NCBI GenBank assembly: GCA_045657165.1
Contig: JAZOSP010000067.1
Span: 3,268 to 67,267, forward strand
Reading direction: 5' to 3'
Length of the DNA stretch: 64,000 nt
DNA from: Eubacteriales bacterium
Lineage (GTDB): Bacteria > Bacillota > Clostridia > Oscillospirales > CAG-272
Below the pieces are notes generated by a model. It saw only the letters and a program-made list of their open reading frames with translations. It made no database searches and was not told the DNA's origin. Below, one piece after another: positions 15,007-64,000 of this stretch; positions within the stretch are counted from its first letter, which is position 1, and each line of letters opens with the position of its first letter. The translations under genes and the position numbers were made by a program.

Positions 15007-15039
15007 TTTTCGTTCTCCCTTGTCTTAAATCGAACCTTC

Positions 15040-15255: not shown

Positions 15256-15261
15256 ATGAGC

Positions 15262-15415: not shown

Positions 15416-15434
15416 GATAAATAGGGGGTAAACT

Positions 15435-15953: not shown

Positions 15954-15971
15954 CATCTATTACTTATGGGA

Positions 15972-16000
15972 TTGACAATATCGAAATCACGTGATATAAT
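15972..16000 (+). promoter_or_regulatory. Perfect-consensus sigma-A promoter pointing out of the element's right end
   Basis: TTGACA (15972-15977), a 17-nt spacer, then TATAAT (15995-16000). There is no ORF between it and the right repeat. A second promoter-like TTGCAA-17-TATAAG lies at 16023-16051. Confidence 0.6.
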
Positions 16001-48122: not shown

Positions 48123-51100
48123 TTAATCTTCCTTTTCGCCCGTATCAGAGTCTTCATCTGAGCTTTCCACCTCAGATACCGTATCGATACTGTAAGCGGT
48201 AACTCTCAGAGCTCTTCTTTTCTTAAGGAATATTACAACTCCAACGCAAACGGCAGCTGCGACGATAACCGAAGCCGACACGATAATAACCACGAGCCAT
48301 ACGTCGCCGCCATCCTCGGGCGGATTTTCTACCGGAGGCTCCTCGGGGAAGTGCTCGGCATAGGTCTTCGAGAAGTCAAGCTCCTTACCCATAGCAGTGG
48401 AGAGCTCGCCTGTCTTGGTCTCAAGCCTTGTCGCATTTTCAACGTCCGCGCGCTCTGCCTCGGTGAGCGCAAGGTATGCACCTCTTGCGTCCTTAACGAG
48501 ATTGAAGGAGTACTCGGAGTTATCCATATCAAAGAGATGTGCAATCATATTCTCTACAACGCTGACGTTGTACTCGCTGCGAGCCGTCTTGAATTTCTCA
48601 ACGTACGAGCTGTCGACAAACGCCATCTCGTCAGTCTTTCCGTCAAGTGCGTTGTAAGCGTTTATTGCCGCGTTGATAAGAGCCTCGTCAAAGCGGTCGA
48701 GAGTCTGGGGCAGCTTTTTTACCGCCTCGATGAATGCAAGTGCATAAGGTCCTGTTACAGTGCCGGAATTCTCGCTCTCGGAGGCAAGGAAGTATGCTTT
48801 GTAAATCTTGGAATCGTAGCCGCTGTTGTTGACGGGAAGAACGTAGGTCAGATCCATTGCGCCCTCAGAGGTCACGAGATCCTTGAAGTTGCTGTAGCAG
48901 TAGGGAGTAGCTACGGCATCGTGCATTCTGTAATAATAGTCGTACTTATAGAGCTTATCAAATCCGGGATATTTTTCAACCGTATCGGGGGTTATTCCCT
49001 CCTCGTCAACTCCTGTCATCGTTCCCTCAAGAACGGGAGCGTAGTAGGATTTGAAGACTACGGTCTTAAGATTTTCGCACATATAGAACGCATGGTTGCC
49101 TATATACTTGAGCGACTCGGGAAGAATAACCTTTTCAAGGTTCTTGTTGCCGAGAACCGCGCAGTATCCGATTCTCGCCGTGCCATCGGCAACGGTGAAT
49201 TCCTCGTCAGCCTTTGCGGTAGGATAGGAAACGAGAATATATCCTACGGGAGCTACCGTGTAAAGCACGCCGTCGTCTATCATAACGTTAGCGTACTCCT
49301 TGTCGGTAACCTCCTCGCTTCCAACGGTTGTGAAGAACTCGGTAAACTTCTCACAGCCCTCGAATATGCTGACACCAACGGTCTCGAGCGATTCGAAGAT
49401 TTCAAATCTCTCTATTGCGGTGTAAGCAAAGGCATAATCGCAAATCTCAACGAGCTTCGGAGCGTAGAAGCTTGCAAGCTTCTCACAGCCCGCAAATGCC
49501 TGCTCGCCAACGTATGTAAGCTCGGGAGCGTATACAGACTCAATATAATTGTCGAAATAATCCGTGCTCTCAACGAATGCCTGCTCGCCAACGTACTCTG
49601 CGCTTGTCAAAATGAGCTCAGCGGGAAGCGGTACGCCCAAAAGCGCCTGAGAACCGAAGCGAACTATGCCCGAAAGGTCAAGGTCCGCAAGTGAAACGCA
49701 GCCCTGGAATGCGAAATCGGGAAGCACCTCAAGCCCCTCGGAGAGCGTTGCGGTTTCAAGAGCCGTGCAATTCATAAAGGCTCCGACACCAATCTCCGTC
49801 ACGCCGGACAGATCAATGGCTTCGAGCTTAACGCAGCAGTAGAACGCGCCCTCTCCAACCTTGGTAAGCTTGGGAGCGTATATCGTCTTGATAGCCGCGC
49901 CCTGCTCAGCACCCTCGGTATAGGGAGAGAAGGCGTAGTCGCCGATTATCTCAAGATTTGCCGCGCTGAAGGAATCAAGCGCATAGCAATCCGCGAAGCA
50001 GGCGTTGCCGAGCTCGGTGACACCGGGAGCATTAACCGACCTAAGCGCCGTGCAGCCGTAGAAGGCAAAATCGCCGAGCTTGCCGACCACGTCAGCAAAA
50101 TCAAACGTTACAAGGCCGGTGCAGCCTAAGAACGCGCCCTCACCGACGGTCACGTTGCCGCCGCGCAGTTCTACCTCTGTGACGGGTGTCAGTGAGAATG
50201 CATACTCGCCTACCGTCGCCTTAGCACCGATTACAACCGTCTCAAGATAAGGAGCCTCGTAGAATGCGCCTTCACCGATAATAACGCCCTCGAGCGCAAG
50301 ATTTACAGAGGTTATTCCGCTGCTCTCGAACGCAAATTCGCCAACTTTCTTTACCTTATTAAGATTAATAGAGTCGAGCGAGGCAGTGCTTGAAAAGGCG
50401 TATGCACCGATAGTTATTTCTCTGTCGGGCAGGGTTACACTCTCAAGATTCGTGCAGTACGCGAAGGCACCGGTGCCTATGCTCTCAAGAAGAGAGCCGT
50501 TCTCAAAGTTAACCGAAAGAAGCTTGGTATTTGAGGAGAATGCTCCGGCAGCAATTTCCTTAACTCCTGCGGGAACGGTGAAGCTCGTCGCATTCGAGCC
50601 GGGGAGAAGGAGCATAAGACGGCTTCCGTCCTTGCTGTAAATAGCGTCGCCTACAAGCTTATAATTGCTCGATTCGGAAACGTCAACGGTAAGGCTGTCT
50701 GCGCTGTCTAAAATGCCTATACCGCCCTCAGAGATAATCGTATTGCCACCGAACTCAAGGCTCGAGATACCGGAGCCGGCAAATGCGCCGTCACCGATAA
50801 CCACCTCACAGTCGGGAAGCTTGAAGTCGGTGAGCGACTCGCACTCGTAGAACGCGAAGCTCGCAATCTTCTCACACTCGCCGTGGAAGGTGACGTCCGT
50901 AAGTCTTATACAGCCCGAGAATGCCTCGGCACCAAGGTAGGTAAGGTCGTTTTTGAATTCTACCGACTCAAGCTTTGTACAGTTCTTAAATGCCGAATCG
51001 GATACTATATCACTGTAGATTACTATTTCCTCTATCGGAGTGCTCTCGAACATCTTCTCGGAGACTCTCGTTCTCTTGCCAAGCTCGACCGCTTTAAGCT

Positions 51101-54100
51101 TCGAGCAGCCGGAAAACGCGCCCGTGCCGGTAAGGCTGAGCGTCGTGAGCTGAAGGCTGCTGAATCTCGCACCGGAGAATGCGTACGAGCCTATTGCGTA
51201 AACGCCCGAAAGGTTTGCTCCGCCAGGAAGCTCCGCGCAGGAAAGGCTCTCGCACATATAGAAGGCGTAGTCGGAAATAATGTTTACGTTGTCAAAGTTA
51301 ACGTTTTCAAGCACGTCGCACTTAGCGAAGGCGTATTCACCGATCGTTTTACAGCTTTCGGGAAGCGTAACGTCACCGAGAAGCTTACAGTTGTAGAACG
51401 CATACTTTTCAATCGTTTCAACGTCCTCCGGTATGACGACCGAGGTAACCGTGTTGTTGCCGAGGGGCTCCTTCTTAAGATCGATATCGTAGTATCCGTT
51501 CTCGTCCTTTTCAACCTCCTTCTCGTTATCGAGGTTGTAATGGCAGAACGCGAACGCACCTATCGTCATAATGCCCTCGTCTTTGGGTATAACGACGTCG
51601 CCGCCCTTACCCTTATAGGCTATGAGAGTGCGGTTTTCAACGATAAATTCACTCTTTACCGTAACCGAGCAGCGCGCCGCGAGAAGCGAGGTCTTGCCGT
51701 CTACCTTTATTTGAAGAGAAATTCTTGCAATACCTTCAGCCTCGGCGGTTACGACACCGTTTTCGTCAACCGTCGCAACCTTCGGGTTGCTCGAGGTCCA
51801 TATAAGCTCATAGCGGCTGGACGGGAGATTCCATGGCTCAAGGTCGTAGTTGAGCTTTACTTTTTCCGACGGGTAGAAGGAAATACTGTAATTTCCGCCG
51901 AAATAATTTACCGTATCTGTAAGACCGATTTCTGAGTAATCAATATCGCTGTTGAAGGCAAACAGCGTGTCGTACGAGACAAATTGAAGTGATTCAACGC
52001 CAATTTCTTTTGACGAATCGGGATTTTTTATCTCGGTGTCGCTGACGTTAATTTCAACCTCTAACGCTTTACCCCAGGTGCTTCCCACAACGCTTACCGT
52101 TGCAGAGCCGCTCTTAAGCGCTTCAATCTTTCCGTCACAGATAGCTATGACGGACTCGTCGGACGAGGTCCACGTGAGCGCCTTGAGGTAGCCGGTCTCT
52201 ACGGGTGTTGCCGTATCCTTGTGAACGAGGTATTCCGTAAGGTCGAGAGTCTCGTTGATATCAAGATCAAGTCCGTCCGCAAGCTCCTCGACGAACTCAA
52301 GGTCTTCGCCCTCGGTTTCGGGGAAGGGAATGTAGGAAACGCCCGAGTTCATAGCGTAGTCGTCGATGTAAACGGTAAGACCCTCGGGTCTTGCAGAATC
52401 GGCGATGATATCAAGGTAATCGGTAATTTCGATGGTAACCTTAGTGGTTTCGCCGCGGTTTTCCTGATATATCGGTATGGGATTTTCAATCAGCGAGGAG
52501 TAGGTGTTCTTCTTCTCGCCCTTCTCGTCGGTGTATTCGTAGGTGATTATGGGACGTATCGACATTGCGTAATGGTTATCGTAAACCATAACGTCGACAT
52601 AGTATCTGTTCTCTTCCCTGCTCTTATCGTACTCGGTTCTGAAGATTGCATCAACAACCGAGGGAGCCTCGTAGTCGATATAGAAGGAGAAGGTGTATGT
52701 ATCTGAGGAATTGCGGTTCTCGCTCTCCCAGTCAAGCTTTGCCGACATGGTTACCTCATATCGGGTGTTGTTGCTGCCGAAGACCTCGTTGGTCTTGAAA
52801 TCAGCCATGGGCAGCTGGAAGTTTGAAACGTGGGGGTAAGGACCGCCGCCGTTATAGTGAGCCTTATAGCAGTTGTACTGCGTTTCGTCCCATACTACCT
52901 TGCCCGTCGAGGTATCGACTATGGAGATGTACATCTCCTTTGCACCTCTGAGAAGTCCCGCAAATACGCCGTAGATACCGCTTATTGCGTCGGCATAGTA
53001 GGATATTGCGGAGTGCTCCTGCGTTGCGGGGATGGGATTGTAAAGCGACTCATCCATGTTGTAAACGTACGATCCGAGGGGAAGAATATAGTCGTAATAG
53101 TAGGTTCCCGTAGGAGTCGTGGGATAGTAGTCCGCCTTAATTTTATCGTCCTCGTCGATGGCGTTGTTGTGCGCCTCGGTCTCAACCTCGTAATAGTCAA
53201 GGTCGAAGATGGGAGCCTCGCCCCAATCGCCGTAGAAAGCAAGGAAGGGAGCGTTAAGGTCAATGCCGTTTTCATCGGTGCTGTCGAAGGTAAGGAAGCC
53301 CTCAACGTACATTCCGTTCTTAAAGTTACGGTTGATGTAAGACTTATCCTCAGCCGAAAGCGTAATAGTTGCGGTTACGGTTGCGGTCTCGCCTGCCTCT
53401 ACCGTAACGACACCGTTTGCATAGCTGCCGTTTGAAACGGTATACTCGGCGGTGTTCGAGAGCAGATAAGCTATCTCCGCAACGTACTCGGGCTCGGAGG
53501 TGGAAACGCTCTCGGTCATCGTGATATTACCTATGCGGTAGCTGACGCTCGCGTCGGAAACATTCTTAAGATAAACGGTCATCGTGTAAACGCCCGTGCG
53601 GCTCGGGTCGTCGCCGAGCTCAATCTTGGTCTTACCCGTGCCGTCTTGGAGAACGTAGAGGTAAGCGGGAGTTGTGGTAGACTTCGCGATATCGGCAATG
53701 CCCGCGCCCTGCTTTCTCGGGGAATAAGGGTTGCCGTTCTTGTCAAGCGCTATGGTCGCGGTAGACATGCAAAGCTGGTTAACGAGGTCGCGCACCTCGG
53801 GCGAATCAAGCTCGGGATACTTTTCCTTGACGTACTGGCGGATAAGAACGACGATACCGGTCATGTTAGGAGCCGCCATACTCGTTCCGCTCATTTCCTC
53901 GTATTCGCCGCCAACGATAGCGGAGAGGATGTTGCCGCCGTGCGCCGTAATCTCGGGCTTGAGCGTAAGGTCGGGATTGGGACCCCAGCTCGAGAAGTCA
54001 CTCATGAAGGGACCTGCCTCGTTGGTGTAATCGAACTTAACCTTTCCGGTTTCAAATTCCGCAAGCCTGTCACCGTCGTCCTTGCCGATTGAAATAACCG

Positions 54101-55766
54101 GTATTTTAAGGTCGTTACCAACCGTCATCGATATCTCACCGAAGACGTTGTTGTAGATTATAATTGCCGCAGCGCCCGCCTCGTAGGCGAACTGCACCTT
54201 TTCCTCGAAGGTTATATCGCCTCGCTTGACGAGGGCTATCTTTCCTTCCATTTCAAGGCCGGAATAGTTGATAGCGTATCCATAGCCGGGAATAGTCACG
54301 TAGTCAAACTCAGCACGGGGATTTTCTTCGGTAACGCCGAGCATTTCAAAGAAATCGTAAGGCTTTGCGCTCTGGTTTACGGCTTCATTGAAGAACACAA
54401 TGTGGTCGCCGTTTGCAAGAAGGTAGTTCTCCTTGTTTCCGTTAATAGACGCGACGGAAAAGGCTGCGTCATAGGTCGAGGGCGAGCCGACCGTTGCCGA
54501 GTCGGGGTTGTCGGTCTTATTGGTGTTTCCCTGCTCAGAGCCAAATCCGCTGCTGTAGTCGTTCGACGCGGCTACGACAAGGGAAATGCCTGCCGCCTGA
54601 ATGCTGTCGTATATGCTGTTTTTATAATCGTCGTCAACCTCGCGGGAGAAGCCGCAGGACGAGCCAAGGCTCATGTTTATAGCGTCAACGCCGAGGGTGA
54701 TAGAGTCCTCAAGGCCGGCAAGAATATCGCCGTCCTCAGCGCCCTGCTCGTAATCGCTGAACACCTTCATTATCGCAAGCTGGGTGTCGATGGCAACGCC
54801 CGTGATAGTGTCGTCCTTACCGCCGATGATACCCGCAACGTGAGTACCGTGGCTGTTCGAGAAGGGCATAATATCGGTGTCCTTATCAGCATAGTCGTAG
54901 CCATAGGCTATCTTGCCGCCCGTGATATTTCCGTAATAAAGCTCTCTTACTTCAATCGATTCGTCGTACGAATATGCGACGAGCTCGGGCAAAAGCTTTT
55001 CAATTTTGTCACGGGAATAAAGGGGAGATACAACCTCGTGAGTGGTGAACGCGGAGTGAGTATAATCACATCCCGTATCAAGTATTGCCACGATAGTACC
55101 CTTGCCCGTGTAGCTCACGCTGCCGCTGTTGAAGATACCGGTTTCGTAAACGTCAACCGGGTTTTCAACCGCTGACGCGGGAAGATATGTATTCGAAATT
55201 ATTACTCTTTCAACGCCGCTGTGATTGCAAATTGCCTCGATATTTTCATACGAGGTGCGTACGTAAGCGCCGTCCATTATGTTGTAATAATTGTACTTGA
55301 CCTCGTCGATAAGCCCCTCGTTCTCAAGAGACGAAAGTACGCTCGACTGATTTTTGGCAAGCCTATCTCTTTGAGCCCCGGCTTTATCGGAGACAAGGTA
55401 CTCCTTGTAGGTCATTTTCTTCGAATCGGAGGATCCTGTAAAGGAGCCGATAAGAGACTCGTCGGAGAAGGAGATGATAACGCCAACCTCTCCCGAGAGC
55501 TCGTAATCCTCTATTTTTTTGATGAGATCCTTATTGATTGATTTCAAAAAGTCCTTTTTAAGCTGCGCTATCGTCGCGTCGCTCTCGAACCTTTCTATGC
55601 CACTTCCGCCAGCCGAGCCGCCAAAACGCAGCGGTGAGCTGTCTATTAATGCAGAGCAGCAAACCGAGAATATCTGCGCGAGCAACGTCACGAGCAGAAT
55701 CCAGGCAGTCAGCCTCTTGGAGAGCCCTTTGGTTCTTTTTTCTGTTTTCGTGTTAGAATTTTGCAT
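48123..55766 (-). CDS. Giant cell-envelope S8 subtilisin-like peptidase fused to PA, Big_2 and BspA-LRR domains, membrane-anchored, ~2547 aa
   Basis: ORF track frame 48123..55796 starts on TTG. I prefer ATG 55766, which follows a GAGGAAA RBS. The catalytic triad motifs are VAILDTGCDYTH (Asp), SHGTHVAGIIGG (His) and SGTSMAAPNMTG (Ser). The PA insert reads GKIALVKRGDITFEEKV. Two Big_2 modules (WTSSDESVIA and WTSSNPKVATV) are followed by ~900 aa of LRR_5 repeats. The C-terminal TM helix reads VWLVVIIVSASVIVAAAVCVGVVIFL. Confidence 0.9.
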   Translation of the reverse strand: MQNSNTKTEKRTKGLSKRLTAWILLVTLLAQIFSVCCSALIDSSPLRFGGSAGGSGIERFESDATIAQLKKDFLKSINKDLIKKIEDYELSGEVGVIISFSDESLIGSFTGSSDSKKMTYKEYLVSDKAGAQRDRLAKNQSSVLSSLENEGLIDEVKYNYYNIMDGAYVRTSYENIEAICNHSGVERVIISNTYLPASAVENPVDVYETGIFNSGSVSYTGKGTIVAILDTGCDYTHSAFTTHEVVSPLYSRDKIEKLLPELVAYSYDESIEVRELYYGNITGGKIAYGYDYADKDTDIMPFSNSHGTHVAGIIGGKDDTITGVAIDTQLAIMKVFSDYEQGAEDGDILAGLEDSITLGVDAINMSLGSSCGFSREVDDDYKNSIYDSIQAAGISLVVAASNDYSSGFGSEQGNTNKTDNPDSATVGSPSTYDAAFSVASINGNKENYLLANGDHIVFFNEAVNQSAKPYDFFEMLGVTEENPRAEFDYVTIPGYGYAINYSGLEMEGKIALVKRGDITFEEKVQFAYEAGAAAIIIYNNVFGEISMTVGNDLKIPVISIGKDDGDRLAEFETGKVKFDYTNEAGPFMSDFSSWGPNPDLTLKPEITAHGGNILSAIVGGEYEEMSGTSMAAPNMTGIVVLIRQYVKEKYPELDSPEVRDLVNQLCMSTATIALDKNGNPYSPRKQGAGIADIAKSTTTPAYLYVLQDGTGKTKIELGDDPSRTGVYTMTVYLKNVSDASVSYRIGNITMTESVSTSEPEYVAEIAYLLSNTAEYTVSNGSYANGVVTVEAGETATVTATITLSAEDKSYINRNFKNGMYVEGFLTFDSTDENGIDLNAPFLAFYGDWGEAPIFDLDYYEVETEAHNNAIDEDDKIKADYYPTTPTGTYYYDYILPLGSYVYNMDESLYNPIPATQEHSAISYYADAISGIYGVFAGLLRGAKEMYISIVDTSTGKVVWDETQYNCYKAHYNGGGPYPHVSNFQLPMADFKTNEVFGSNNTRYEVTMSAKLDWESENRNSSDTYTFSFYIDYEAPSVVDAIFRTEYDKSREENRYYVDVMVYDNHYAMSIRPIITYEYTDEKGEKKNTYSSLIENPIPIYQENRGETTKVTIEITDYLDIIADSARPEGLTVYIDDYAMNSGVSYIPFPETEGEDLEFVEELADGLDLDINETLDLTEYLVHKDTATPVETGYLKALTWTSSDESVIAICDGKIEALKSGSATVSVVGSTWGKALEVEINVSDTEIKNPDSSKEIGVESLQFVSYDTLFAFNSDIDYSEIGLTDTVNYFGGNYSISFYPSEKVKLNYDLEPWNLPSSRYELIWTSSNPKVATVDENGVVTAEAEGIARISLQIKVDGKTSLLAARCSVTVKSEFIVENRTLIAYKGKGGDVVIPKDEGIMTIGAFAFCHYNLDNEKEVEKDENGYYDIDLKKEPLGNNTVTSVVIPEDVETIEKYAFYNCKLLGDVTLPESCKTIGEYAFAKCDVLENVNFDNVNIISDYAFYMCESLSCAELPGGANLSGVYAIGSYAFSGARFSSLQLTTLSLTGTGAFSGCSKLKAVELGKRTRVSEKMFESTPIEEIVIYSDIVSDSAFKNCTKLESVEFKNDLTYLGAEAFSGCIRLTDVTFHGECEKIASFAFYECESLTDFKLPDCEVVIGDGAFAGSGISSLEFGGNTIISEGGIGILDSADSLTVDVSESSNYKLVGDAIYSKDGSRLMLLLPGSNATSFTVPAGVKEIAAGAFSSNTKLLSVNFENGSLLESIGTGAFAYCTNLESVTLPDREITIGAYAFSSTASLDSINLNKVKKVGEFAFESSGITSVNLALEGVIIGEGAFYEAPYLETVVIGAKATVGEYAFSLTPVTEVELRGGNVTVGEGAFLGCTGLVTFDFADVVGKLGDFAFYGCTALRSVNAPGVTELGNACFADCYALDSFSAANLEIIGDYAFSPYTEGAEQGAAIKTIYAPKLTKVGEGAFYCCVKLEAIDLSGVTEIGVGAFMNCTALETATLSEGLEVLPDFAFQGCVSLADLDLSGIVRFGSQALLGVPLPAELILTSAEYVGEQAFVESTDYFDNYIESVYAPELTYVGEQAFAGCEKLASFYAPKLVEICDYAFAYTAIERFEIFESLETVGVSIFEGCEKFTEFFTTVGSEEVTDKEYANVMIDDGVLYTVAPVGYILVSYPTAKADEEFTVADGTARIGYCAVLGNKNLEKVILPESLKYIGNHAFYMCENLKTVVFKSYYAPVLEGTMTGVDEEGITPDTVEKYPGFDKLYKYDYYYRMHDAVATPYCYSNFKDLVTSEGAMDLTYVLPVNNSGYDSKIYKAYFLASESENSGTVTGPYALAFIEAVKKLPQTLDRFDEALINAAINAYNALDGKTDEMAFVDSSYVEKFKTARSEYNVSVVENMIAHLFDMDNSEYSFNLVKDARGAYLALTEAERADVENATRLETKTGELSTAMGKELDFSKTYAEHFPEEPPVENPPEDGGDVWLVVIIVSASVIVAAAVCVGVVIFLKKRRALRVTAYSIDTVSEVESSDEDSDTGEKED

Positions 55767-55823
55767 TTGGGTTTCCTCGAATTTTTTTCCTATCAAAATT
55801 TTTATTTTTTAGTCACGCACGTT

Positions 55824-57085: not shown

Positions 57086-58666
57086 TTAAAGAAGCGGCGC
57101 AAACAGCTTTATGCCCATACGGAAAATCCATTCGGTAAAGCTAAGACGCGACTTTCTCGCGTCAATGCGCTCAGAGGTCGATAGCGTGCGGAGAAATTCA
57201 TCCTTTGCCGTCGCGGCAATCGGAGTATTGTAGGTCCACACCGCGTCCTCAAAATGATGTACAAGGCTTCGGTAATCTAAATTAATAGTCCCGACGACAG
57301 CGTACACGTCGTCAGAAACGAGGGTTTTCTCGTGGATAAATCCTGGGGTGTATTCGTAAATTTTGACTCCCGAGTCCATAAGGTGAGGATAAGAGCTTTT
57401 GGTCATAATCTTGACTATTTTCTTATCAGCAGTGCCGGGTGTCACGATACGCACGTCAACTCCGCGCAGGGCAGCGTTACAAAGCGCCTCGGTTAAATCG
57501 TAATCGACGATAAGATAAGGCGTCGTTATATACAGATATTTTTCTGCCTGATTGATAAGATTCATGAAGGTGCTCTTGCCCACGGGTCGCTTATAGATAG
57601 GCGCGGGTCCCGAGCCGAACGGAATGTAGTATCCGCCGTCAGGCTGCACCGCACTCTCAGAGCACGAAAGTATATCCTCGTAATCGCTGACCGTACGGGT
57701 CGTGAAATCCCACGAGGACAAAAACAGCTTTGTAAGCCCCCTCACGGCGTCGCCCTCAAGCCTTATTCCGCCATCCTTCCAGTGCCCGAAGCGGAGCTTG
57801 CGGTTTACGTACTCATCGGCGATGTTCACGCCACCCGTGTAGCCGATTTTGCCGTCAATCACGCATATTTTGCGGTGGTCGCGGTTGTTGTGGACCGCCG
57901 AAACGCGCGGCGAAACTCTTGCGAAGCGATAAGCCTTTATTCCCTCAAGCCGCAGCCCAAGCTCGTAATGAGCAGGCAGGGTCTTCATACAGCCTATGTC
58001 GTCGTAAAGAAGTCTTACGTCAACGCCCGCCGCCGCCTTCTCGCGAAGCAGCTCGTGTACCGAGTCCCAGAGCTCGCCCGGCTCAATTATAAAATACTCA
58101 AGAAATATATACTTTTTCGCCGCAGAGAGGTCTACGCGAAGCGACTCAAAGTAGCTCTCGCCCGTCGGGAAGAAGTCTGACGAGGTATTCACATACACCT
58201 CAGAGAGCGCATCCTCGCGCAGTATCTCGCGCGCCTTGCCTGCGGCGAGCGCGTTCTCCTCCATAAGCTTTGCGAACGCCTCGTCGCCGAGCCTGTAATT
58301 GTTCATTTCGGCGAAGCTGCCGCGCAAAAGCGCGCTCTCCGCCCTTGTCATTCGCCTGTCATAGAAGAGCAGGTATACCACAGGGCCGAAAATCGGCATA
58401 AGCAGAATTATCGCAATCCACGTGACCTTATACTCGGGATTCGCATCTCTGTTTATAAGCATGACGAGGGTCACTATCCCCATGATATACGCAAGTGCGA
58501 CGGCAACGTAAAAATATGTGGTGGCGCTTACCAAAAGATAGGTCATTACGATAACCTCGGCGACGATTATCAACGCCGAGATTGCGTATCTCGAAAAGAA
58601 CACTCTGCACAGCTTGCGCAGCGCGGAAACGCTCCTTGACGTTTTTTTGTAAGCTCTTTTCTTCAT
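57086..58666 (-). CDS. cls: Cardiolipin synthase (PLD superfamily), 526 aa
   Basis: ORF track. N-terminal TM helices and two HKD motifs, HRKICVIDGKIGYTGGVNIADEY and HEKTLVSDDVYAVVGTINLDYRS. Confidence 0.9.
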   Translation of the reverse strand: MKKRAYKKTSRSVSALRKLCRVFFSRYAISALIIVAEVIVMTYLLVSATTYFYVAVALAYIMGIVTLVMLINRDANPEYKVTWIAIILLMPIFGPVVYLLFYDRRMTRAESALLRGSFAEMNNYRLGDEAFAKLMEENALAAGKAREILREDALSEVYVNTSSDFFPTGESYFESLRVDLSAAKKYIFLEYFIIEPGELWDSVHELLREKAAAGVDVRLLYDDIGCMKTLPAHYELGLRLEGIKAYRFARVSPRVSAVHNNRDHRKICVIDGKIGYTGGVNIADEYVNRKLRFGHWKDGGIRLEGDAVRGLTKLFLSSWDFTTRTVSDYEDILSCSESAVQPDGGYYIPFGSGPAPIYKRPVGKSTFMNLINQAEKYLYITTPYLIVDYDLTEALCNAALRGVDVRIVTPGTADKKIVKIMTKSSYPHLMDSGVKIYEYTPGFIHEKTLVSDDVYAVVGTINLDYRSLVHHFEDAVWTYNTPIAATAKDEFLRTLSTSERIDARKSRLSFTEWIFRMGIKLFAPLL

Positions 58667-59415
58667 TATCTTCCGTTCTCTTCCCCGTCAACGTAGTCGT
58701 CAAAGCGCCCGATTCCCACAAGGTCGTCAACCGGCAGTGAAAGCAGGACGGCGCCGCCCTCGGTCTTAAGACCCGCGGCGTCTCTGACTGCCTCCATAAT
58801 TTTGGTTCTGTATTCAAGCGTTGTGAGGAAGAACACGCTGTCGGTCTCCTGGCTTATCGTCGTTCCTATTGCCTGCTCTGCCTTGGAATTGTTAATGCTC
58901 CTTGTATGGAAAACCGTAGCGCCTGTAGCACCCGCGCTGCGAGCTGCCTCAATGGCTGTGTCGGTGTATTTTCTATCCACGACGGCGATTACAAGCTCGT
59001 GCATTCTGTTTTTCTCCTTTTTCTTGGAAATCGGCGCTCTTTGCGCCACGGGTCTGTCGGTCCTTTCCTGCCCTGAAAGTACTGCGTCGTTAATTATGTT
59101 TGAGATACACGAGAGCGGAACGGTGAAGGCTATTCCTCGCCCGACGAGGTAAAGCTTTAGACCGTGACCGACGGCGCTCAGCACCGCGTGCTCTGCCGAG
59201 TCGGGAATAAGTGACATCGTAATTCTCTTGTCTATCTCGTTGAAGCCGAAATAATTCATATAGCTCGAGTGTGCGGTGCCGTGACCGACTCCCGAAAAAT
59301 GTACTGCCGTCGCGCACTCGTTGACGATATCGGTAAATTTGAGCTCGTCTTCCTTGTTTATGATTCCAACAAGGAGCTTAACGCGTCGCGAGGTCTGCTC
59401 TCCACGTCTTGCCAT
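58666..59415 (-). CDS. Tandem P-II-like (nitrogen-regulator-fold) protein, 249 aa
   Basis: ORF track. There are two ~100-aa halves, KLLVGIINKED...HFSGVGHGTA and ELVIAVVDRKY...ATGATVFHTRS. Both resemble P-II-fold proteins of the kind usually found beside DUF1538 genes. Its start/stop overlaps both neighbouring genes. Confidence 0.6.
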   Translation of the reverse strand: MARRGEQTSRRVKLLVGIINKEDELKFTDIVNECATAVHFSGVGHGTAHSSYMNYFGFNEIDKRITMSLIPDSAEHAVLSAVGHGLKLYLVGRGIAFTVPLSCISNIINDAVLSGQERTDRPVAQRAPISKKKEKNRMHELVIAVVDRKYTDTAIEAARSAGATGATVFHTRSINNSKAEQAIGTTISQETDSVFFLTTLEYRTKIMEAVRDAAGLKTEGGAVLLSLPVDDLVGIGRFDDYVDGEENGR

Positions 59416-60983
59416 CAGTCGTCACCTCCCTTTCCCGTTACACGGGTCGCCCTTATGACCTTTGCGGACAAGCGCCTGTCGGTATAGCCGTAATCAATAA
59501 AGCTCTCGCTCGCGGAAACGAATCTCCGAGCTCTTCCTACGGTCTTTATGCGGTAAACAAGACCGCAGATTTGTATGGATATTATAGGCGCCATGGCGAC
59601 GAGCGCCACGCAGCCGAAGGCGTTTGTCATAACGTCATTTCCGAGCGTCTCGCATGCACCCGTGCAAAGCGGCAGCACGAAGGCGCTCATCATAGTACCG
59701 CTTGCAACTCCGCCCGAGTCGAAGGAAATACCGACGAATATCTTCGGAACGAAGAAGCTGAGGGTGAGTGCTATAACGTAGCCGGGTATGAGAATCCAAA
59801 TAAGCGGCAGTTCGGTTATAATGCGAAGCGCCGCAAGCCCAAGAGCCGACGCCACGCCGACCGAGAGTCCAAGCCCCGTCGTTTTGCCCGATATCGCGCC
59901 CGCGCTCATATTTTCAACGAGCTTATTGAGCACGTAAACCGAGGGCTCTGCCTTGACTATGAAATAGCCGAGCAGCATACTGATAAGCACAAGAGGTATG
60001 CCGTACCACATTCCCGCAAGCTGCATGCCTATTGCCGTGCCCGTAGGAACAAATCCGACGTTAGCACCCGTGAGGAACACCGCAAGACCTACGAGAATAT
60101 AAGCCGCGCCCACTCCCATTCTGATAAACTGCACCTTGGTAAACGCACGGGTCACAAGCTGGAAAAGAACCGCAAAGGCGACTATCGGAGCAAGTGCCGC
60201 AAGCACCTCAGGAGCGTAGTGTAAAAATCCAGTAGCGTACTCTGCCAAGCCGTCACGCGTGCTTTCTATAGTTGGGGTTGTGACGGGGGTGTAGCTGCCT
60301 CCCTCAATGCCGAGCGCAACTCCAAGCACAAGCACAGAGATTATAGGTCCTATACTGCAAAGTCCGGTGATACCGAAGGAGTCGTCGCGGTTGTCAGCCG
60401 AGAGCTTCGCTGCCGAAACACCCGCGCCTATCGACATAATGAAGGGTACTGTCATCGGTCCCGTCGTAACTCCGCCCGAGTCAAACGCCAAGGTTTTGAA
60501 GCCGTCGGGCAGGAAAAACGATAGTGTAAGTGCCACCGCGTAGAACGCGATAAGTATAACCCTAAGGCTCCAGCCGAAAACGATTCTCATTACCGCAATC
60601 ATAAGGAACACTCCGACCCCCACCGACACGGTAAGTATAAGAACCATATTTTCGATTCCGCTTACCTGATTTGCCAGAATCTGCAAATCAGGCTCGGATA
60701 CCGTAACTATTATACCGATTATAAAGCTGACGAAGGCAATAAGCCATACCTTGCCGCTTCCCGCTATCGTGCTGCCTATTTTCGTGCCGAGGGGCTGCAT
60801 TGACATTTCAGCGCCCGCGGTGAAAAGGCTCATACCAAACACAAGACACACCACGCCTATCAGAAAGAGGAGCATATCCCCCGTAGGCATAGGGACTATC
60901 GTGACGCTGAGAAGGAGCACTATAAACGCTATCGGCAGCACCGAGCGCAGCGATTCAAAAATTTTATCCTTAATAAGATTCAC
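59415..60983 (-). CDS. DUF1538-family integral membrane protein (duplicated domain), 522 aa
   Basis: ORF track (GTG start, GAGGTAA RBS). The N-terminus NLIKDKIFESLRSVLPIAFIVLLL...TVSEPDLQILA matches the DUF1538 pattern as I remember it. The protein is polytopic and internally duplicated. Confidence 0.75.
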   Translation of the reverse strand: MNLIKDKIFESLRSVLPIAFIVLLLSVTIVPMPTGDMLLFLIGVVCLVFGMSLFTAGAEMSMQPLGTKIGSTIAGSGKVWLIAFVSFIIGIIVTVSEPDLQILANQVSGIENMVLILTVSVGVGVFLMIAVMRIVFGWSLRVILIAFYAVALTLSFFLPDGFKTLAFDSGGVTTGPMTVPFIMSIGAGVSAAKLSADNRDDSFGITGLCSIGPIISVLVLGVALGIEGGSYTPVTTPTIESTRDGLAEYATGFLHYAPEVLAALAPIVAFAVLFQLVTRAFTKVQFIRMGVGAAYILVGLAVFLTGANVGFVPTGTAIGMQLAGMWYGIPLVLISMLLGYFIVKAEPSVYVLNKLVENMSAGAISGKTTGLGLSVGVASALGLAALRIITELPLIWILIPGYVIALTLSFFVPKIFVGISFDSGGVASGTMMSAFVLPLCTGACETLGNDVMTNAFGCVALVAMAPIISIQICGLVYRIKTVGRARRFVSASESFIDYGYTDRRLSAKVIRATRVTGKGGDD

Positions 60984-61073: not shown

Positions 61074-63656
61074 TTACATCTTGGACTGAGCCTCAATAGT
61101 CTCGCGTATCTGTCTTCTCGTTTCGACTATCTCGCCGTAAAACTCCCGTGCACTAACGCGCAAGCCGCCGCTGCCGAGTATAACGAGCTGCTCCTCAAGG
61201 TCTGAGGTCACAACCCTCACGGTATGCTCAGCCACCCTGTCGTGAGTCGCCTTTTCAATGTACGAGTCGGCAGTCTCCGACTCGCGAGTGTATACCACGG
61301 TAACGGCACCGCACTCCTCTATTGCACCCTCTCCGCCCTGACGCTTATAGGCGTCGAATACGACTATGGCAAGACATCTGTGATAGGCTGTGTAGTCGCA
61401 CATCATGCGCACGACGGTGTCTCTCGCATGCGAGAGGTCGCGCTCTGCGACGCGCGACAGCTCATCATTTGCAAAAATGAAGTTATATCCATCAACTATA
61501 ACGTAATCCTTGCCGCGCACGCGCGGCTTTTTCGGCTTCTCCCGCCCCACTGACGGCGCTTTATTCTCTACCTTCTCGGGCGCACGCCGCGGCTTTATCT
61601 TGCCGTAGGTCGCCTCGAAAATCCGCATAAGCTCCTTGTCCTCGTCTACCGTGCCGCGATAATCCTGCTTTGCGGGAATTTTTAACACGGGGTCGGCGGT
61701 TTGCTCATTCTTGCCGCCCACTCCTATATCAATATGCATAAGGGCGTCGGCTTCATTCCAAGGAACGGTATATCCCGAGCCCGCCTTACAGAACACCGAG
61801 CTTGCCGTATGGCGCACGTCAAGCGTGGGGTCGTAGCCGCGCGCGGCTATTACCTCGTCTGTGTTGTGACAGGGGAGATAGGTCGTGCTCGTAAGATAGA
61901 GTCTGCCCTCGCCGCGCGTGTAGGCACGCAGCTCGCTTTGATAGGAGCGTACCGTTGCAACCGGGCATAGCCCCTCAAGCACGGCAGTGTCCCCAAAAAA
62001 TTCGGGCGCCTCTGCCACACCGTGCATAGAGGTCACGTCGGTCATAAGTCTGCCGAGATACTCTTTTGGCAGCTCGGCTCTGAAACGGAAGCAGGGCTCA
62101 AGCAGCACCGACTCCGCCTTCATAAGTCCTTGTCTTATCGCGCGGTAGGTTGCCTCGCGGAAATCTCCGCCCTCGGTGTGCTTTAAGTGCGCTCTGCCCG
62201 CGACGAGAGTTATTCTCACGTCGGTGAGAGGTGAGCCTGTGAGCACACCCCTGTGGGCGCGCTCCTCTATATGAGTCATAACAAGCCTCTGCCAATTAAG
62301 CGAAAGCGAGTCTCTGTCGCACTCGGTATCCGCGATAACGCCCGAGCCCTCGGGCAAGGGGTCGATACGCAAATGCACCTCTGCATAATGGCGCAGCGGC
62401 TCAAAATGTCCGCTGCCGAAAACGCTGTCGGCAATAGTTTCCTTATAAAGTATCGCCCCCTCGTCAAAGCCGACCTCTATGCCGTACCTGTCAAGGATAA
62501 GCCGCCGCAGAACTTCAATCTGTATCTCGCCCATAAGCCTGACTCGTATCACGTGAAGACGCGGGTCGTAGGAGAGGGCAAGCGACGGGTCCTCCTCAGA
62601 AAGCTCAAGCAGTCGCATATAGGTTTCATAGGGGCTCACCCCGTCAGGTAGCGTCATTTTATAGTCGAGCACCGGGGCGAGCGTCATCTCAGCGGAAGGC
62701 TCGAAGCCAAGTCCGCAGCCGGCATACACCGAGCCGAGACCGAGCACGGCACACACCGTACCGGCGCTCACCTCCTTCGGCGAGGAATACTTGTCGCCCG
62801 AATAAACTCTTATCTCCTCGACCTTTTCGGATACGGCACTCCCGTTTTCCGCAGTAAAGGTGATAAGGTCCTTGTTTTTTAACACGCCCCCCGTAATTTT
62901 CATATAAGCGAGGCGCTTGCCTGCCCTGTCACGGGCTATCTTGAAGACTCGCGCACCGAAAACCGTGCCGGAATAAGGGCGCTCAAGAGAGTACTTATCA
63001 ATACCCGAAAGCAGCTCCTTCACGCCCTCGAGCTTCAGCGCAGAGCCAAAATAGCAGGGAAAAATCTTTCTTTTCTTCACCGCCCGAGCAAGCGAGTCTA
63101 CCGAGAGGCTCTCCCTCTCGAAATACTCTGCCATAAGCTCCTCATCAGAGGCGGCAGCCGCCTCGTAAAAGGCGGGAGAGGTGTCACAGGTAAAATCTGT
63201 GCAGCCGCCCGACAGTACGGTACGCAGCTCCGAGAGAATTGCCTCGCGGCGGCGCTCGGATATGTCGGTTTTATTTATAAAAATAAAGGTGGGGATTTTC
63301 CGCGCGGCAAGCAGGTGCCAGAGCGTTTTGGTATGTGCCGTCACGCCGTCAGGTGCGCTTATTATCAGCACGGCATAATCCTGCACGGAAACAGCCCTCT
63401 CCGCCTCGCAGGAGAAATCAATATGCCCGGGTGTGTCTATCAGCGTGACTGACATATCCCCGTAGGAAAGCTCCGCCTGCTTTGAAAATATAGTAATTCC
63501 GCGCTCTCGCTCAAGAGCGTGCGTATCAAGGTATGCGTCGCGCTTATCCACCCTGCCAAGGCGGTCGGTAGCGCCCGAGCTATAAAGAAACGCCTCGGAA
63601 AGAGTGGTTTTGCCCGCGTCAACGTGTGCAACTATTCCTAAAACTATTTTCTTCAC
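61074..63656 (-). CDS. EF-G/TetM-like translational GTPase fused to a C-terminal Rae1/YacP-type NYN ribonuclease domain, 860 aa
   Basis: ORF track (GTG start). G1 AHVDAGKTT, G3 DTPGH and G4 NKTD, with strong overall resemblance to TetM/EF-G through ~aa 640. A basic linker follows. Residues ~716-860 (nt 61077-61511) read VIVDGYNFIF...AIVVFDAY...ESETADSYIEK...VVTSDLEEQ, which is the YacP/Rae1 NYN pattern. Confidence 0.85.
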   Translation of the reverse strand: MKKIVLGIVAHVDAGKTTLSEAFLYSSGATDRLGRVDKRDAYLDTHALERERGITIFSKQAELSYGDMSVTLIDTPGHIDFSCEAERAVSVQDYAVLIISAPDGVTAHTKTLWHLLAARKIPTFIFINKTDISERRREAILSELRTVLSGGCTDFTCDTSPAFYEAAAASDEELMAEYFERESLSVDSLARAVKKRKIFPCYFGSALKLEGVKELLSGIDKYSLERPYSGTVFGARVFKIARDRAGKRLAYMKITGGVLKNKDLITFTAENGSAVSEKVEEIRVYSGDKYSSPKEVSAGTVCAVLGLGSVYAGCGLGFEPSAEMTLAPVLDYKMTLPDGVSPYETYMRLLELSEEDPSLALSYDPRLHVIRVRLMGEIQIEVLRRLILDRYGIEVGFDEGAILYKETIADSVFGSGHFEPLRHYAEVHLRIDPLPEGSGVIADTECDRDSLSLNWQRLVMTHIEERAHRGVLTGSPLTDVRITLVAGRAHLKHTEGGDFREATYRAIRQGLMKAESVLLEPCFRFRAELPKEYLGRLMTDVTSMHGVAEAPEFFGDTAVLEGLCPVATVRSYQSELRAYTRGEGRLYLTSTTYLPCHNTDEVIAARGYDPTLDVRHTASSVFCKAGSGYTVPWNEADALMHIDIGVGGKNEQTADPVLKIPAKQDYRGTVDEDKELMRIFEATYGKIKPRRAPEKVENKAPSVGREKPKKPRVRGKDYVIVDGYNFIFANDELSRVAERDLSHARDTVVRMMCDYTAYHRCLAIVVFDAYKRQGGEGAIEECGAVTVVYTRESETADSYIEKATHDRVAEHTVRVVTSDLEEQLVILGSGGLRVSAREFYGEIVETRRQIRETIEAQSKM

Positions 63657-63694
63657 ACGGGTACCCCCTTTCCGTGAAATTATCTCACTCTTGA

Positions 63695-64000
63695 CTATTT
63701 CTGTCCGTTATCCTTTTCATTTGAGAGCCCGAGGGCAAGCCGCACGCAAAAGTCGTCACAAGACTCCTCATAGCTAAACTCATCAGCAACGTATTCGGCA
63801 AGCCGCGAGCAGGTTTTAAGCCCTATGCCGTTGCTCTCGACAGCGACATTGCCCCGTCCTATTTTGTTTCTGAACTCCAAGCGCAAATGCTTGTCGTCGT
63901 TTGAGATTGAAATCACAATTTTCTCGTCCTTATCTGCGTATTTATACAGATTCGAGAAAATATTGTCGATTATCCTCATAAGATACTGCGCGTCGGTATA
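63695..64000 (-). CDS. Sensor histidine kinase, C-terminal ATP-binding domain only; the 5' part lies beyond the right window edge
   Basis: ORF track 63695..63979, and the frame stays open to the window end. N-box-like IIDNIFSNLYKYA and G-box SNGIGLKTC. Confidence 0.6.
   Translation of the reverse strand, partial: YTDAQYLMRIIDNIFSNLYKYADKDEKIVISISNDDKHLRLEFRNKIGRGNVAVESNGIGLKTCSRLAEYVADEFSYEESCDDFCVRLALGLSNEKDNGQK

What the first reader, a model, noticed from the sequence alone, without database searches (positions are those of the whole stretch)
61074..63656. Fusion of an EF-G/TetM-like ribosomal GTPase to a Rae1/YacP-type NYN endoribonuclease domain
The first ~640 aa are a full five-domain translational GTPase with intact G1, G3 and G4 motifs and close resemblance to ribosomal-protection/EF-G proteins, which dock at the ribosomal factor-binding site next to the A site. 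After a Lys/Arg/Pro-rich linker, the last ~145 aa (nt 61077-61511) match the YacP/Rae1 NYN domain and retain the acidic residues expected for catalysis (VDGYN, VVFDA, ETADSYIE, TSD). B. subtilis Rae1 is known as a ribosome-dependent endoribonuclease that cleaves mRNA in the A site. Fusing that nuclease to a GTPase that docks beside the same site suggests a GTP-gated, ribosome-delivered mRNA-cleavage or ribosome-rescue factor, or a translation-targeting toxin or defence effector. I know of no characterised protein with this architecture.
Basis: partly seen in the sequence, partly recalled or inferred. Interest (0 to 1): 0.75.

Follow-up and report, generated by a model that had tools for sequence, protein, structure and literature searches.

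The report
Ribosome GTPase fused to Rae1-type nuclease
This gene really does encode an EF-G/TetM-like ribosome-binding GTPase joined by a long flexible tether to a Rae1-type RNA-cutting domain; the design is common in gut Clostridia and was noted in print in 2015 and 2017, but nobody has tested what it does, and it most likely cuts mRNA on stalled ribosomes.

Summary
One uninterrupted 860-aa ORF (61074-63656, minus strand) encodes a complete five-domain translational GTPase, a roughly 70-residue disordered basic tether, and a YacP/Rae1 NYN domain. All G motifs and all four NYN acidic residues are invariant across 94 relatives that go down to 38% identity.

It is not an assembly artefact and it is not rare. 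All 120 best database hits, 80 GTDB species loci and about 140 of the top 150 clusters at 50% identity are full-length fusions, and they sit in chromosomal contexts in Clostridia.

It is not a bona fide tetracycline-protection protein. It scores half the NCBIfam cut-off, and the TetM YSPVS tip is replaced by a family-invariant AHxKHTEGG motif. There is no defence-system match and no conserved partner gene.

The architecture was already described by Atkinson (2015) and Matelska et al. (2017). I found no functional study.

My best reading, which is inferred, is a GTP-gated, ribosome-docked Rae1 that cleaves mRNA outside the A site to trigger rescue. It possibly replaces stand-alone Rae1 in these lineages.

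The parts
61074..63656 (-). Complete CDS of the 860-aa trGTPase-NYN fusion protein (stop codon 61074-61076; GTG start 63654-63656)
63664..63707 (-). Likely own expression signals: promoter-like CGGACA-17-(TG)GATAAT (63707-63679) and ribosome-binding site AAGGGGG (63670-63664), 7 nt before the GTG
   Evidence: These are consensus matches only, not shown to be functional.
62991..63647 (-). G domain with short Tet-like G' insert (aa 4-222). G1 A10-T17, G2 T55, G3 D74-H78 (catalytic His78), G4 N128-D131, G5 G204-A206
   Evidence: Pfam GTP_EFTU 4.8e-47. Motif residues are invariant or at least 90% conserved in 94 sequences. Colinear with TetO/TetM.
62718..62954 (-). Domain II beta-barrel (aa 235-313)
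   Evidence: Pfam EF-G_D2. AF2 strands 234-317 with pLDDT above 90.
62469..62669 (-). Domain III (aa ~330-396)
   Evidence: Pfam EFG_III 5e-05, 23.7 bits, slightly under the gathering score. Confident alpha/beta fold in AF2. Matched by EF-G structures.
62112..62453 (-). Domain IV (aa 402-515), the A-site-probing domain of EF-G-type factors
   Evidence: Pfam EFG_IV 2.8e-18. Alignments to EF-G, TetO and TetM.
62127..62198 (-). Domain-IV tip signature G-R-A-H-L-K-H-T-E-G-G-D-F-R-E-A-T-Y-R-A-I-R-Q-G (aa 487-510). It occupies the position of TetM loop III (GLYYSPVSTPADFR) and EF-G GSYHEVDSSEMAFK
   Evidence: H490, K492, H493, T494, D498 and F499 are at least 90% conserved. Residue alignments.
61863..62108 (-). 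Domain V (aa 517-598)
   Evidence: Pfam EFG_C 2.6e-15.
61722..61862 (-). Family-specific C-terminal mini-module of the GTPase body (aa 599-645): helix, beta-hairpin, short helix. Motif GYDP..D..H..SSVFC..G.GY.VPW....MH
   Evidence: Y608, D613, S620, F622, G626, V631, W633 and H641 are at least 90% conserved. AF2 pLDDT above 90. Also present in the NYN-less L. salivarius homologue. No counterpart aligned in TetO/TetM.
61509..61721 (-). Flexible basic tether (aa 646-716). Two disordered stretches (648-670, 688-711) flank one conserved helix (aa 670-684, ELMRIFEATYG; nt 61605-61649)
   Evidence: AF2 pLDDT below 50 for 648-670 and 688-711. Low conservation except the helix. For the slightly offset span aa 642-716 measured, the tether is 59-110 aa (median 76) across 94 members, with 19 K+R of 75 residues in the query.
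61077..61508 (-). YacP/Rae1-type NYN endoribonuclease domain (aa 717-860). Acidic active-site residues D722, D768, D797, D819. Lacks the ~28-aa C-terminal tail of stand-alone Rae1
   Evidence: Pfam NYN_YacP 1.5e-41. 5MQ8/5MQ9 E = 4e-20. The four Asp are invariant in 94 sequences. Alignment with B. subtilis and C. difficile Rae1. D7N/D81N is the published catalytic mutant (PMC10351889).

Best explanation
The gene encodes a housekeeping translation-quality-control factor of Clostridia. It is a Rae1-type NYN endoribonuclease permanently tethered to its own ribosome-docking module.

Proposed mechanism:
1. The GTP-bound EF-G/Tet-like body binds the factor-binding site (sarcin-ricin loop / GTPase-associated centre) of a ribosome that is not being served by EF-Tu or EF-G, that is, a stalled or collided ribosome.
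2. The invariant His/Lys-rich domain-IV tip probes the decoding centre.
3. The NYN domain swings on a basic, disordered tether of about 60-110 residues. It cleaves mRNA outside the A site, at the entry-channel side of the bound ribosome. In a collision this is the stretch just behind the leading ribosome, where stand-alone Rae1 cuts.
4. GTP hydrolysis, using the conserved His78, releases the factor.
5. The truncated mRNA channels the ribosomes into tmRNA rescue.

What is shown: the architecture, conservation of both catalytic centres, the flexible tether, the breadth of the family, its chromosomal context, and the lack of Tet-defining features. What is inferred: ribosome binding, the substrate being mRNA, the cleavage position, the stall or collision specificity, and the link to trans-translation.
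For: - Both halves are under strong purifying selection. The GTPase residues K16, T55, D74-H78, K129 and D131 and the NYN residues D722, D768, D797 and D819 are invariant in 94 sequences at 38-78% identity.
- The body is a complete EF-G-type five-domain fold (AF2 mean pLDDT 89.8; Foldseek E 1e-44 to 1e-52 to ribosome-bound EF-G, EF-G2 and TetM).
- The NYN domain is a close relative of B. subtilis Rae1 (E = 4e-20 to 5MQ8). Rae1 is a ribosome-dependent mRNA endonuclease that acts at stalled or collided ribosomes and feeds tmRNA (PMC12407103; PMC13622287). D7 and D81, the residues changed in the published catalytic mutant (PMC10351889), are conserved.
- A disordered basic tether of 59-110 aa is universal.
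- The family is large and chromosomal, with identity falling off roughly with taxonomy. It has no conserved operon partner. This fits a self-contained housekeeping factor.
- In Monoglobus pectinilyticus the only NYN_YacP hit among its deposited records is the fusion, and the canonical slot after rlmB is empty. In Bacilli and C. difficile, stand-alone yacP always follows rlmB. This is consistent with the fusion taking over the Rae1 role.
Against: - There is no experimental data on any family member. Ribosome binding, the substrate and the trigger are all inferred from homology.
- TetM-type factors prefer non-rotated ribosomes with an empty A site, whereas collided trailing ribosomes are rotated, so which ribosome is bound is open.
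- I could not obtain model coordinates to dock on 70S structures.
- The replacement of stand-alone Rae1 rests on incomplete genome views: one species, in records filed as plasmids.
- NYN-less homologues exist (L. salivarius; P0253, P0259, P0268), so the GTPase body has a function of its own that I cannot name.
- About 40 of 94 members retain a Rae1-like C-terminal tail and the rest do not. This is unexplained.
Confidence: 0.45

Rival explanations
1. A-site cleavage. The GTPase docks, and the NYN domain enters the A site and cuts the A-site codon in the manner of RelE or Cue2.
For: The original Rae1 model (2017), recalled in PMC12407103, docked Rae1 into the A site. The factor-binding site is adjacent to the A site.
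Against: [quoted passage not shown] In EF-G-type and Tet-type factors, domain IV itself fills the 30S A site (established structural knowledge; TetM Pro509 overlaps the tetracycline site, PMC7456112). A 16-kDa NYN domain could therefore not be there at the same time. A conserved tether of 59-110 aa is far longer than needed for an adjacent site.
Confidence: 0.1
2. The target is stable RNA rather than mRNA. The factor delivers the NYN nuclease to 16S or 23S rRNA or to tRNA for ribosome maturation, inactivation or turnover, for example during stationary phase or sporulation.
For: Atkinson 2015 suggested rRNA RNase activity for these proteins. Stand-alone yacP is embedded in an rRNA and tRNA-processing operon, cysS-mrnC-rlmB-yacP. 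A factor docked at the GTPase centre is close to the sarcin-ricin loop, h44 and H69.
Against: All experimentally defined Rae1 substrates are mRNAs cleaved in a translation-dependent way. An unregulated rRNA-cutting enzyme carried by a constitutive chromosomal gene with no inhibitor partner would be hazardous. The long tether is not needed to reach rRNA next to the docking site.
Confidence: 0.2
3. It is a tetracycline (or other A-site antibiotic) ribosomal-protection protein, as NCBI annotation says. The NYN domain is an accessory that clears mRNAs from drug-stalled ribosomes.
For: The best full-length sequence matches are TetO and TetM (5e-73 and 1e-68) and NCBIfam tet_protect. It is colinear with Tet proteins, including the short G' and an equal loop-III length ending in the shared DFR motif. 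TetM tolerates the S508A/P509A/V510A substitutions (PMC4750697), so the tip sequence is not an absolute criterion. NCBI names relatives as TetM/W/O/S family.
Against: It scores 392.8 bits against the curated cut-off of 775. The Tet tip YYSPVS is replaced by the family-invariant AHLKHT(EGG). Domains IV-V alone are closer to EF-G than to Tet (3.7e-19 against 7e-15). The extra C-terminal module replaces the Tet C-terminal helix region. The gene is chromosomal and roughly vertically inherited across Clostridia rather than carried on mobile elements.
Confidence: 0.12
4. It is a translation-targeting toxin or anti-phage abortive-infection effector.
For: Nuclease fusions to sensing NTPases are common in defence systems. 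The window carries a defence island (AIPR, Z1, DUF4420, HATPase_c_3) at 1-16 kb. One full-length copy lies on a scaffold labelled as bacteriophage.
Against: There are no PADLOC matches. There is no conserved neighbour, antitoxin or immunity gene in 80 loci. The defence island is 45 kb away and has a different GC content (38% against 50-54%). Housekeeping neighbours appear in cultured genomes. The phage scaffold is UNVERIFIED, and there the gene sits next to NAD(P)H-hydrate dehydratase.
Confidence: 0.05

Closest known systems
Rae1/YacP of Bacillus subtilis (ribosome-associated endoribonuclease 1; PDB 5MQ8/5MQ9)
   Same: It has the same NYN_YacP fold family (E = 4e-20, about 36-40% identity) and all four active-site Asp, including D7 and D81. 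The expected shared activity is ribosome-dependent mRNA cleavage.
   Different: Rae1 is a free 170-aa protein encoded after rlmB. Here the domain is the C-terminus of an 860-aa GTPase encoded elsewhere, it lacks the ~28-aa Rae1 tail, and it is preceded by a ~70-aa tether.
TetM/TetO ribosomal-protection proteins
   Same: These are the best full-length sequence relatives. They are colinear over residues 1-595, share the short G' and have intact G motifs.
   Different: The score is below the curated family cut-off. The loop-III tip sequence is different and family-invariant. The protein has an extra C-terminal mini-module plus NYN. It is chromosomal, not carried on a transposon or plasmid.
EF-G / EF-G2
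   Same: It has the same five-domain fold. Domains IV-V are closest to EF-G, and the tip His of EF-G (GSYH) aligns with the invariant H490.
   Different: Loop I of domain IV is 4 residues shorter. G' is short. The protein is not the housekeeping translocase: NCBIfam EF-G models score far below their cut-offs.
Tet-like-NYN_YacP fusions noted by Atkinson 2015 (BMC Genomics) and Matelska et al. 2017 (NAR)
   Same: This is the same architecture and the same clade (Clostridia). The present protein is a member.
   Different: Those papers listed about ten species and left the function open. The present survey shows more than 140 clusters at 50% identity and at least 80 GTDB species, and shows that the Tet-defining features are absent.
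Functional analogues: SmrB (E. coli), Cue2/NONU-1 (eukaryotes), and trGTPase-linked decay adaptors Hbs1-Dom34 and Ski7
   Same: All couple recognition of a stalled or collided ribosome to mRNA cleavage or decay. Hbs1 and Ski7 use a translational-GTPase fold to do so. This comparison rests on established knowledge and on the discussion in PMC13622287.
   Different: These proteins have unrelated nuclease folds (SMR) or no nuclease at all. None is a covalent EF-G-type GTPase-nuclease fusion. The analogy is inferred, not tested.

Membership tests
Translational GTPase, EF-G/EF2 family | G1-G5 nucleotide-binding motifs, including the catalytic His of DxxGH | tested here: met
   AHVDAGKT, RGITI, DTPGH, NKTD and GSA are present. 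K16, T55, D74-H78, K129 and D131 are invariant in 94 sequences.
Translational GTPase, EF-G/EF2 family | Five-domain architecture (G, II, III, IV, V) | tested here: met
   Pfam GTP_EFTU, EF-G_D2, EFG_IV and EFG_C are above their cut-offs, and EFG_III is just below. The AF2 model is confident. Foldseek gives E 1e-44 to 1e-52 to EF-G and TetM.
Translational GTPase, EF-G/EF2 family | Ribosome-stimulated GTP hydrolysis | not testable with these tools
   This needs biochemistry.
Tetracycline ribosomal-protection proteins (TetM/O/W/S...) | Score above the curated NCBIfam family threshold | tested here: not met
   tet_protect NF012153 scores 392.8 bits against 775. tet_protect_M_W scores 272 against 1100.
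Tetracycline ribosomal-protection proteins (TetM/O/W/S...) | Domain-IV loop III tip (TetM Y506-Y507-S508-P509-V510) that overlaps the tetracycline site | tested here: not met
   The tip aligns as GRAHLKHTEGGDFR against GLYYSPVSTPADFR. The replacement is family-invariant. Caveat: loop length is equal, and TetM tolerates S508A/P509A/V510A (PMC4750697).
Tetracycline ribosomal-protection proteins (TetM/O/W/S...) | Confers tetracycline resistance | not testable with these tools
   This needs an MIC assay.
Tetracycline ribosomal-protection proteins (TetM/O/W/S...) | Typically carried on conjugative transposons or plasmids | tested here: not met
   80 loci show no conserved mobile context. The A. rectalis and Monoglobus copies sit among housekeeping genes in non-mobilizable records.
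Rae1/YacP NYN endoribonucleases | NYN_YacP profile match above the gathering score | tested here: met
   142.6 bits against 24.6, E = 1.5e-41. E = 4e-20 to the 5MQ8 sequence.
Rae1/YacP NYN endoribonucleases | Catalytic aspartates (Rae1 D7 and D81, plus D53 and D104) | tested here: met
   D722, D797, D768 and D819 are invariant in 94 sequences. The D7N D81N catalytic mutant is described in PMC10351889.
Rae1/YacP NYN endoribonucleases | Stand-alone ~170-aa protein encoded directly downstream of rlmB (yacO) | tested here: not met
   Here the domain is the C-terminal part of an 860-aa protein whose neighbours are a histidine kinase and DUF1538. The canonical arrangement is seen in C. difficile, B. 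subtilis and Listeria.
Rae1/YacP NYN endoribonucleases | Translation-dependent mRNA cleavage at stalled ribosomes | not testable with these tools
   This needs in vivo or in vitro cleavage assays.
Anti-phage defence / toxin-antitoxin effectors | Match to known defence-system models, or a conserved partner (antitoxin or sensor) gene | tested here: not met
   PADLOC gives 0 hits. The most frequent neighbour occurs in only 23 of 80 loci and is a two-component regulator.

The most novel reading that the evidence does not exclude
In much of the Clostridia, this fusion is the Rae1 of the cell. It would be a GTP-gated sensor of stalled or collided ribosomes that delivers its own mRNA endonuclease, making it the first bacterial translational GTPase to carry a nuclease. 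It would be a covalent analogue of eukaryotic Hbs1-Dom34 and Cue2-type no-go decay. Because it can be locked on the ribosome with GDPNP or a His78 mutant, it could reveal how Rae1-type nucleases engage ribosomes. No structure of ribosome-bound Rae1 exists, because that interaction is transient (PMC13622287).
Probability: 0.35. Interest if true: 0.75.

Novelty: new member of a known kind. Interest (0 to 1): 0.5.

Why it matters
Rae1 has just been recognised (2025-26) as the nuclease that starts rescue of collided ribosomes in Gram-positive bacteria, but how it recognises ribosomes is unknown, because the complex is too transient to capture.

A natural protein in which the same nuclease is welded to an EF-G/Tet-like docking module offers two things. 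It gives a strong hint that the factor-binding side of the ribosome is where such nucleases are recruited. It also gives a practical handle for trapping the complex, using a non-hydrolysable GTP analogue or a His78 mutant.

The family is abundant in human-gut and rumen Clostridia such as Agathobacter rectalis, Monoglobus, Faecalibacterium and Ruminococcus. Its role would therefore bear on translation quality control in dominant gut commensals.

There is a practical consequence as well. These genes are widely auto-annotated as "TetM/TetW/TetO/TetS family tetracycline resistance" proteins. That annotation is not supported by the defining features and may inflate resistome counts in gut metagenomes.

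Tried and rejected
1. **Conserved gene neighbourhood.** I clustered ORFs from 80 loci. Nothing is family-wide. The most frequent neighbours are an OmpR-type regulator (23/80), a histidine kinase (22/80), a GNAT-like protein (20/80) and DUF1538 (15/80). No translation-related partner was found.

2. **Canonical yacP slot via the rpmG-secE-nusG-rplK cluster.** In A. rectalis and Monoglobus the synteny is broken at that point, so the view was uninformative. Locating rlmB instead did work for Monoglobus and Vescimonas. Whole genomes could not be inspected, so absence of a stand-alone Rae1 is only suggestive.

3. **Relocated tail helix.** I considered whether the conserved tether helix (ELMRIFEATYG) is the relocated C-terminal tail helix of stand-alone Rae1, that is, a permutation. 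I dropped the idea. About 40 of 94 fusions keep a C-terminal tail as well, and P0160 matches NYN_YacP profile positions 1-161.

4. **GTPase body as a general delivery platform for different effectors.** Odd-length representatives are still NYN fusions with insertions. The single Aminotran_4 case (P0254) is probably a gene-call read-through. P0216 has an unassigned C-terminus that I did not follow.

5. **Phage or plasmid carriage.** Plasmid hits for the fusion are chromosomal pieces filed as plasmids. The one phage hit is an UNVERIFIED virome scaffold with a housekeeping neighbour.

6. **Second copy in the window.** There is no second NYN or trGTPase gene in the window.

7. **Docking on 70S structures.** This was not possible, because model coordinates are not exposed to scripts.

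8. **Literature.** The 2017 EMBO J Rae1 paper is not in the held library. A functional study in a subscription journal could have been missed.


Full report
**Observation.**
The window contains an uninterrupted 860-codon ORF at 61074-63656 on the minus strand. It has a GTG start preceded by an AAGGGGG ribosome-binding site and a TG-extended promoter-like site.

Pfam finds GTP_EFTU (aa 4-222, 4.8e-47), EF-G_D2, EFG_III (just below threshold), EFG_IV, EFG_C (to aa 598) and NYN_YacP (aa 719-858, 1.5e-41; 142.6 bits against a cut-off of 24.6).

The C-terminal 145 residues align to the crystal-structure sequence of B. subtilis YacP/Rae1 (5MQ8/5MQ9) at E = 4e-20. Rae1 D7, D53, D81 and D104 correspond to D722, D768, D797 and D819. 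D7N/D81N is the published catalytic mutant (PMC10351889).

**Is the fusion real, and how common is it?**
- All 120 best hits in a 5.8-billion-protein collection (66-100% identity, 840-873 aa) carry the same domain set.
- A scan of GTDB species representatives confirmed 237 relatives. Of the best 80, all but one contig-truncated locus match the query end to end, at 44-78% identity. They come from Oscillospiraceae, Ruminococcus, Faecalibacterium, Monoglobus, Acutalibacteraceae, Lachnospiraceae and Blautia, mostly from gut and rumen genomes.
- In an exhaustive HMMER search of 1.84 billion representatives clustered at 50% identity, about 140 of the top 150 (E <= 3e-177, list truncated) are full-length fusions of 830-1000 aa.
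- Cultured carriers include Agathobacter rectalis (933 aa) and Monoglobus pectinilyticus (862 aa). In both, the gene lies among housekeeping genes in non-mobilizable records.

A frameshift or assembly artefact is excluded.

**Anatomy.**
An alignment of 94 members (38-78% identity) shows these residues as invariant: A10, V12, D13, G15, K16, T55, D74-H78, K129, D131, H417, D722, Y724, N725, D768, T790, D797 and D819. Both catalytic centres are therefore maintained.

AlphaFold2 gives a confident model (mean pLDDT 89.8, pTM 0.69) with four parts:
1. An EF-G-like body, aa 1-598.
2. An extra, well-ordered and conserved mini-module, aa 599-645: helix, beta-hairpin, short helix, with the motif GYDP..SSVFC..G.GY.VPW..MH.
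3. A tether in which two disordered stretches (648-670 and 688-711) flank one conserved helix (670-684, ELMRIFEATYG).
4. A confident NYN domain, aa 717-860.

Across the family the tether is always present. It is 59-110 residues long (median 76) and rich in Lys and Arg. Foldseek matches ribosome-bound EF-G, EF-G2, mitochondrial EF-G and TetM at E 1e-44 to 1e-52.

**Is the GTPase a Tet protein?**
Over the full length, the best sequence relatives are TetO and TetM (5e-73 and 1e-68) and NCBIfam tet_protect. The latter scores only 392.8 bits against a curated cut-off of 775.

Residue alignment puts GRAHLKHTEGGDFR where TetO and TetM have GLYYSPVSTPADFR and where EF-G has GSYHEVDSSEMAFK. TetM Pro509 in this loop overlaps the tetracycline site (PMC7456112). 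Here the tip is replaced by a nearly invariant H-x-K-H-T-E-G-G signature.

Domains IV-V alone are closer to EF-G (3.7e-19) than to TetO (7e-15). The Tet C-terminal region is not aligned and is replaced by the mini-module.

The body is therefore a distinct Tet/EF-G-like subfamily, not a bona fide protection protein. There is a caveat. Loop length is preserved, and TetM tolerates S508A/P509A/V510A (PMC4750697), so some drug displacement cannot be excluded by sequence alone.

The same body, including the mini-module and most of the tip, exists without the NYN domain on Ligilactobacillus salivarius megaplasmids. That 644-aa protein is 44.5% identical and sits next to an S14 paralogue. A few metagenomic representatives also lack NYN.

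**Context.**
No neighbour is conserved across the family. The commonest are an OmpR-type regulator, a histidine kinase, a GNAT-like protein and DUF1538, each present in a quarter or less of the 80 loci.
- PADLOC gives no match.
- The window has no second NYN or trGTPase gene.
- The AIPR/Z1/DUF4420 defence island at 1-16 kb is 45 kb away and has a different GC content.

These points argue against a toxin or defence role and for a self-contained housekeeping factor.

**Relation to stand-alone Rae1.**
In B. subtilis, Listeria, Staphylococcus, C. difficile and others, the stand-alone NYN gene lies immediately after rlmB.

In Monoglobus pectinilyticus, at least four records numbered "plasmid" 12 to 16 are held in the collection. 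The only NYN hit among them is the fusion, and rlmB is followed by unrelated genes. The A. rectalis record likewise holds only the fusion.

This suggests, but does not prove, that the fusion replaces stand-alone Rae1 in such genomes.

**What is known.**
The architecture is in print.
- Matelska et al. (2017) noted TetM-like-NYN_YacP fusions in some Clostridia and left the role open (PMC5499597).

Six full-text searches found no functional study. The library does not hold most papers from subscription journals.

Knowledge of Rae1 itself has moved. [quoted passage not shown] Rae1 generates tmRNA substrates on collided ribosomes (PMC13622287). That preprint also states that no ribosome-bound Rae1 structure exists, because binding is transient.

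**Mechanism (inferred).**
1. The GTP form of the body docks at the factor-binding site of a ribosome that is idle in elongation.
2. The conserved basic tip samples the decoding centre.
3. The tethered NYN domain reaches mRNA outside the A site, since domain IV fills the A site itself. The likely target is the entry side of the bound ribosome. In a collision, that is the segment just behind the leading ribosome, which is the place where Rae1 cuts.
4. His78-dependent GTP hydrolysis releases the factor.
5. Truncated mRNA leads to tmRNA rescue.

I put this at 0.45. The rivals are:
- rRNA- or tRNA-directed cleavage: 0.2.
- Tet-like drug protection with an accessory nuclease: 0.12.
- True A-site cleavage: 0.1.
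- Toxin or defence effector: 0.05.

**Verdict.**
- The protein is a new member of an architecture that has been described but not characterised.
- Interest is moderate (0.5). The design is not new to the literature. Its abundance in gut Clostridia, its likely mis-annotation as a tetracycline-resistance gene, and its potential as a trap for the elusive Rae1-ribosome complex make it a worthwhile experimental target.

Noticed in passing
window 1-16000: A low-GC (35-41% against 50-54% for most of the rest of the window) mobile island. It encodes AIPR (abortive infection), DUF4420 (PD-(D/E)XK), a Z1-domain protein and HATPase_c_3 in one minus-strand block (783-8038). These are followed by AAA_14/DUF4143, a tyrosine integrase (11063-12217) and a serine resolvase (14317-15006). 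It is probably a horizontally acquired defence island, unrelated to the finding.
   Followed up: partly
L081 5986-7920 (Ligilactobacillus salivarius megaplasmid NZ_CP117984): A 644-aa NYN-less homologue of the same GTPase body (44.5% identity), including the post-domain-V mini-module. It is flanked by transposases and lies divergent from an rpsN (S14) paralogue and a 'metal homeostasis' peptide gene. The GTPase body therefore has a function independent of the nuclease. NCBI also labels it as TetM/W/O/S family.
   Followed up: partly
L090 5397-8024 (MT835563.1, 'UNVERIFIED: Bacteriophage sp.' from a human faecal virome): A full 875-aa GTPase-NYN fusion on a scaffold filed as phage. Its neighbour is NAD(P)H-hydrate dehydratase, and no phage hallmark was seen among the ORFs checked. 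It is most likely bacterial DNA in a virome preparation.
   Followed up: partly
window 48123-55796 (-): A very large ORF (2557 aa) sits next to a 380-aa protein with Listeria-Bacteroides repeats (Flg_new) and an 840-aa SBP_bac_5 protein. It is presumably a giant surface protein. It was not analysed.
   Followed up: no
window 58666-60983 (-): Immediately downstream of the fusion gene lie a DUF1538 membrane protein (522 aa) and a 249-aa protein with no Pfam match whose start overlaps the DUF1538 stop. This pair recurs downstream of the fusion in 13-15 of 80 loci, all close relatives.
   Followed up: partly
P0254 (873 aa) and P0216 (914 aa), representatives: P0254 joins the same GTPase body to a class-IV aminotransferase domain, which is probably a gene-call read-through. 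P0216 has a ~260-aa C-terminal region with no Pfam match in place of NYN.
   Followed up: no
Family alignment A1 (94 sequences), C-termini: About 40 of 94 fusion proteins keep a stand-alone-Rae1-like C-terminal tail (30-60 residues after the SARE motif). 51 of 94, including this one, end 8-24 residues after it. The reason for this split is unexplained.
   Followed up: partly
Public annotation of relatives (e.g. MBO7196447.1, WP_306784676.1): NCBI names many family members 'TetM/TetW/TetO/TetS family tetracycline resistance ribosomal protection protein', although they score about half the curated tet_protect threshold and lack the Tet loop-III tip. This could inflate resistome counts in gut metagenomes.
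   Followed up: partly
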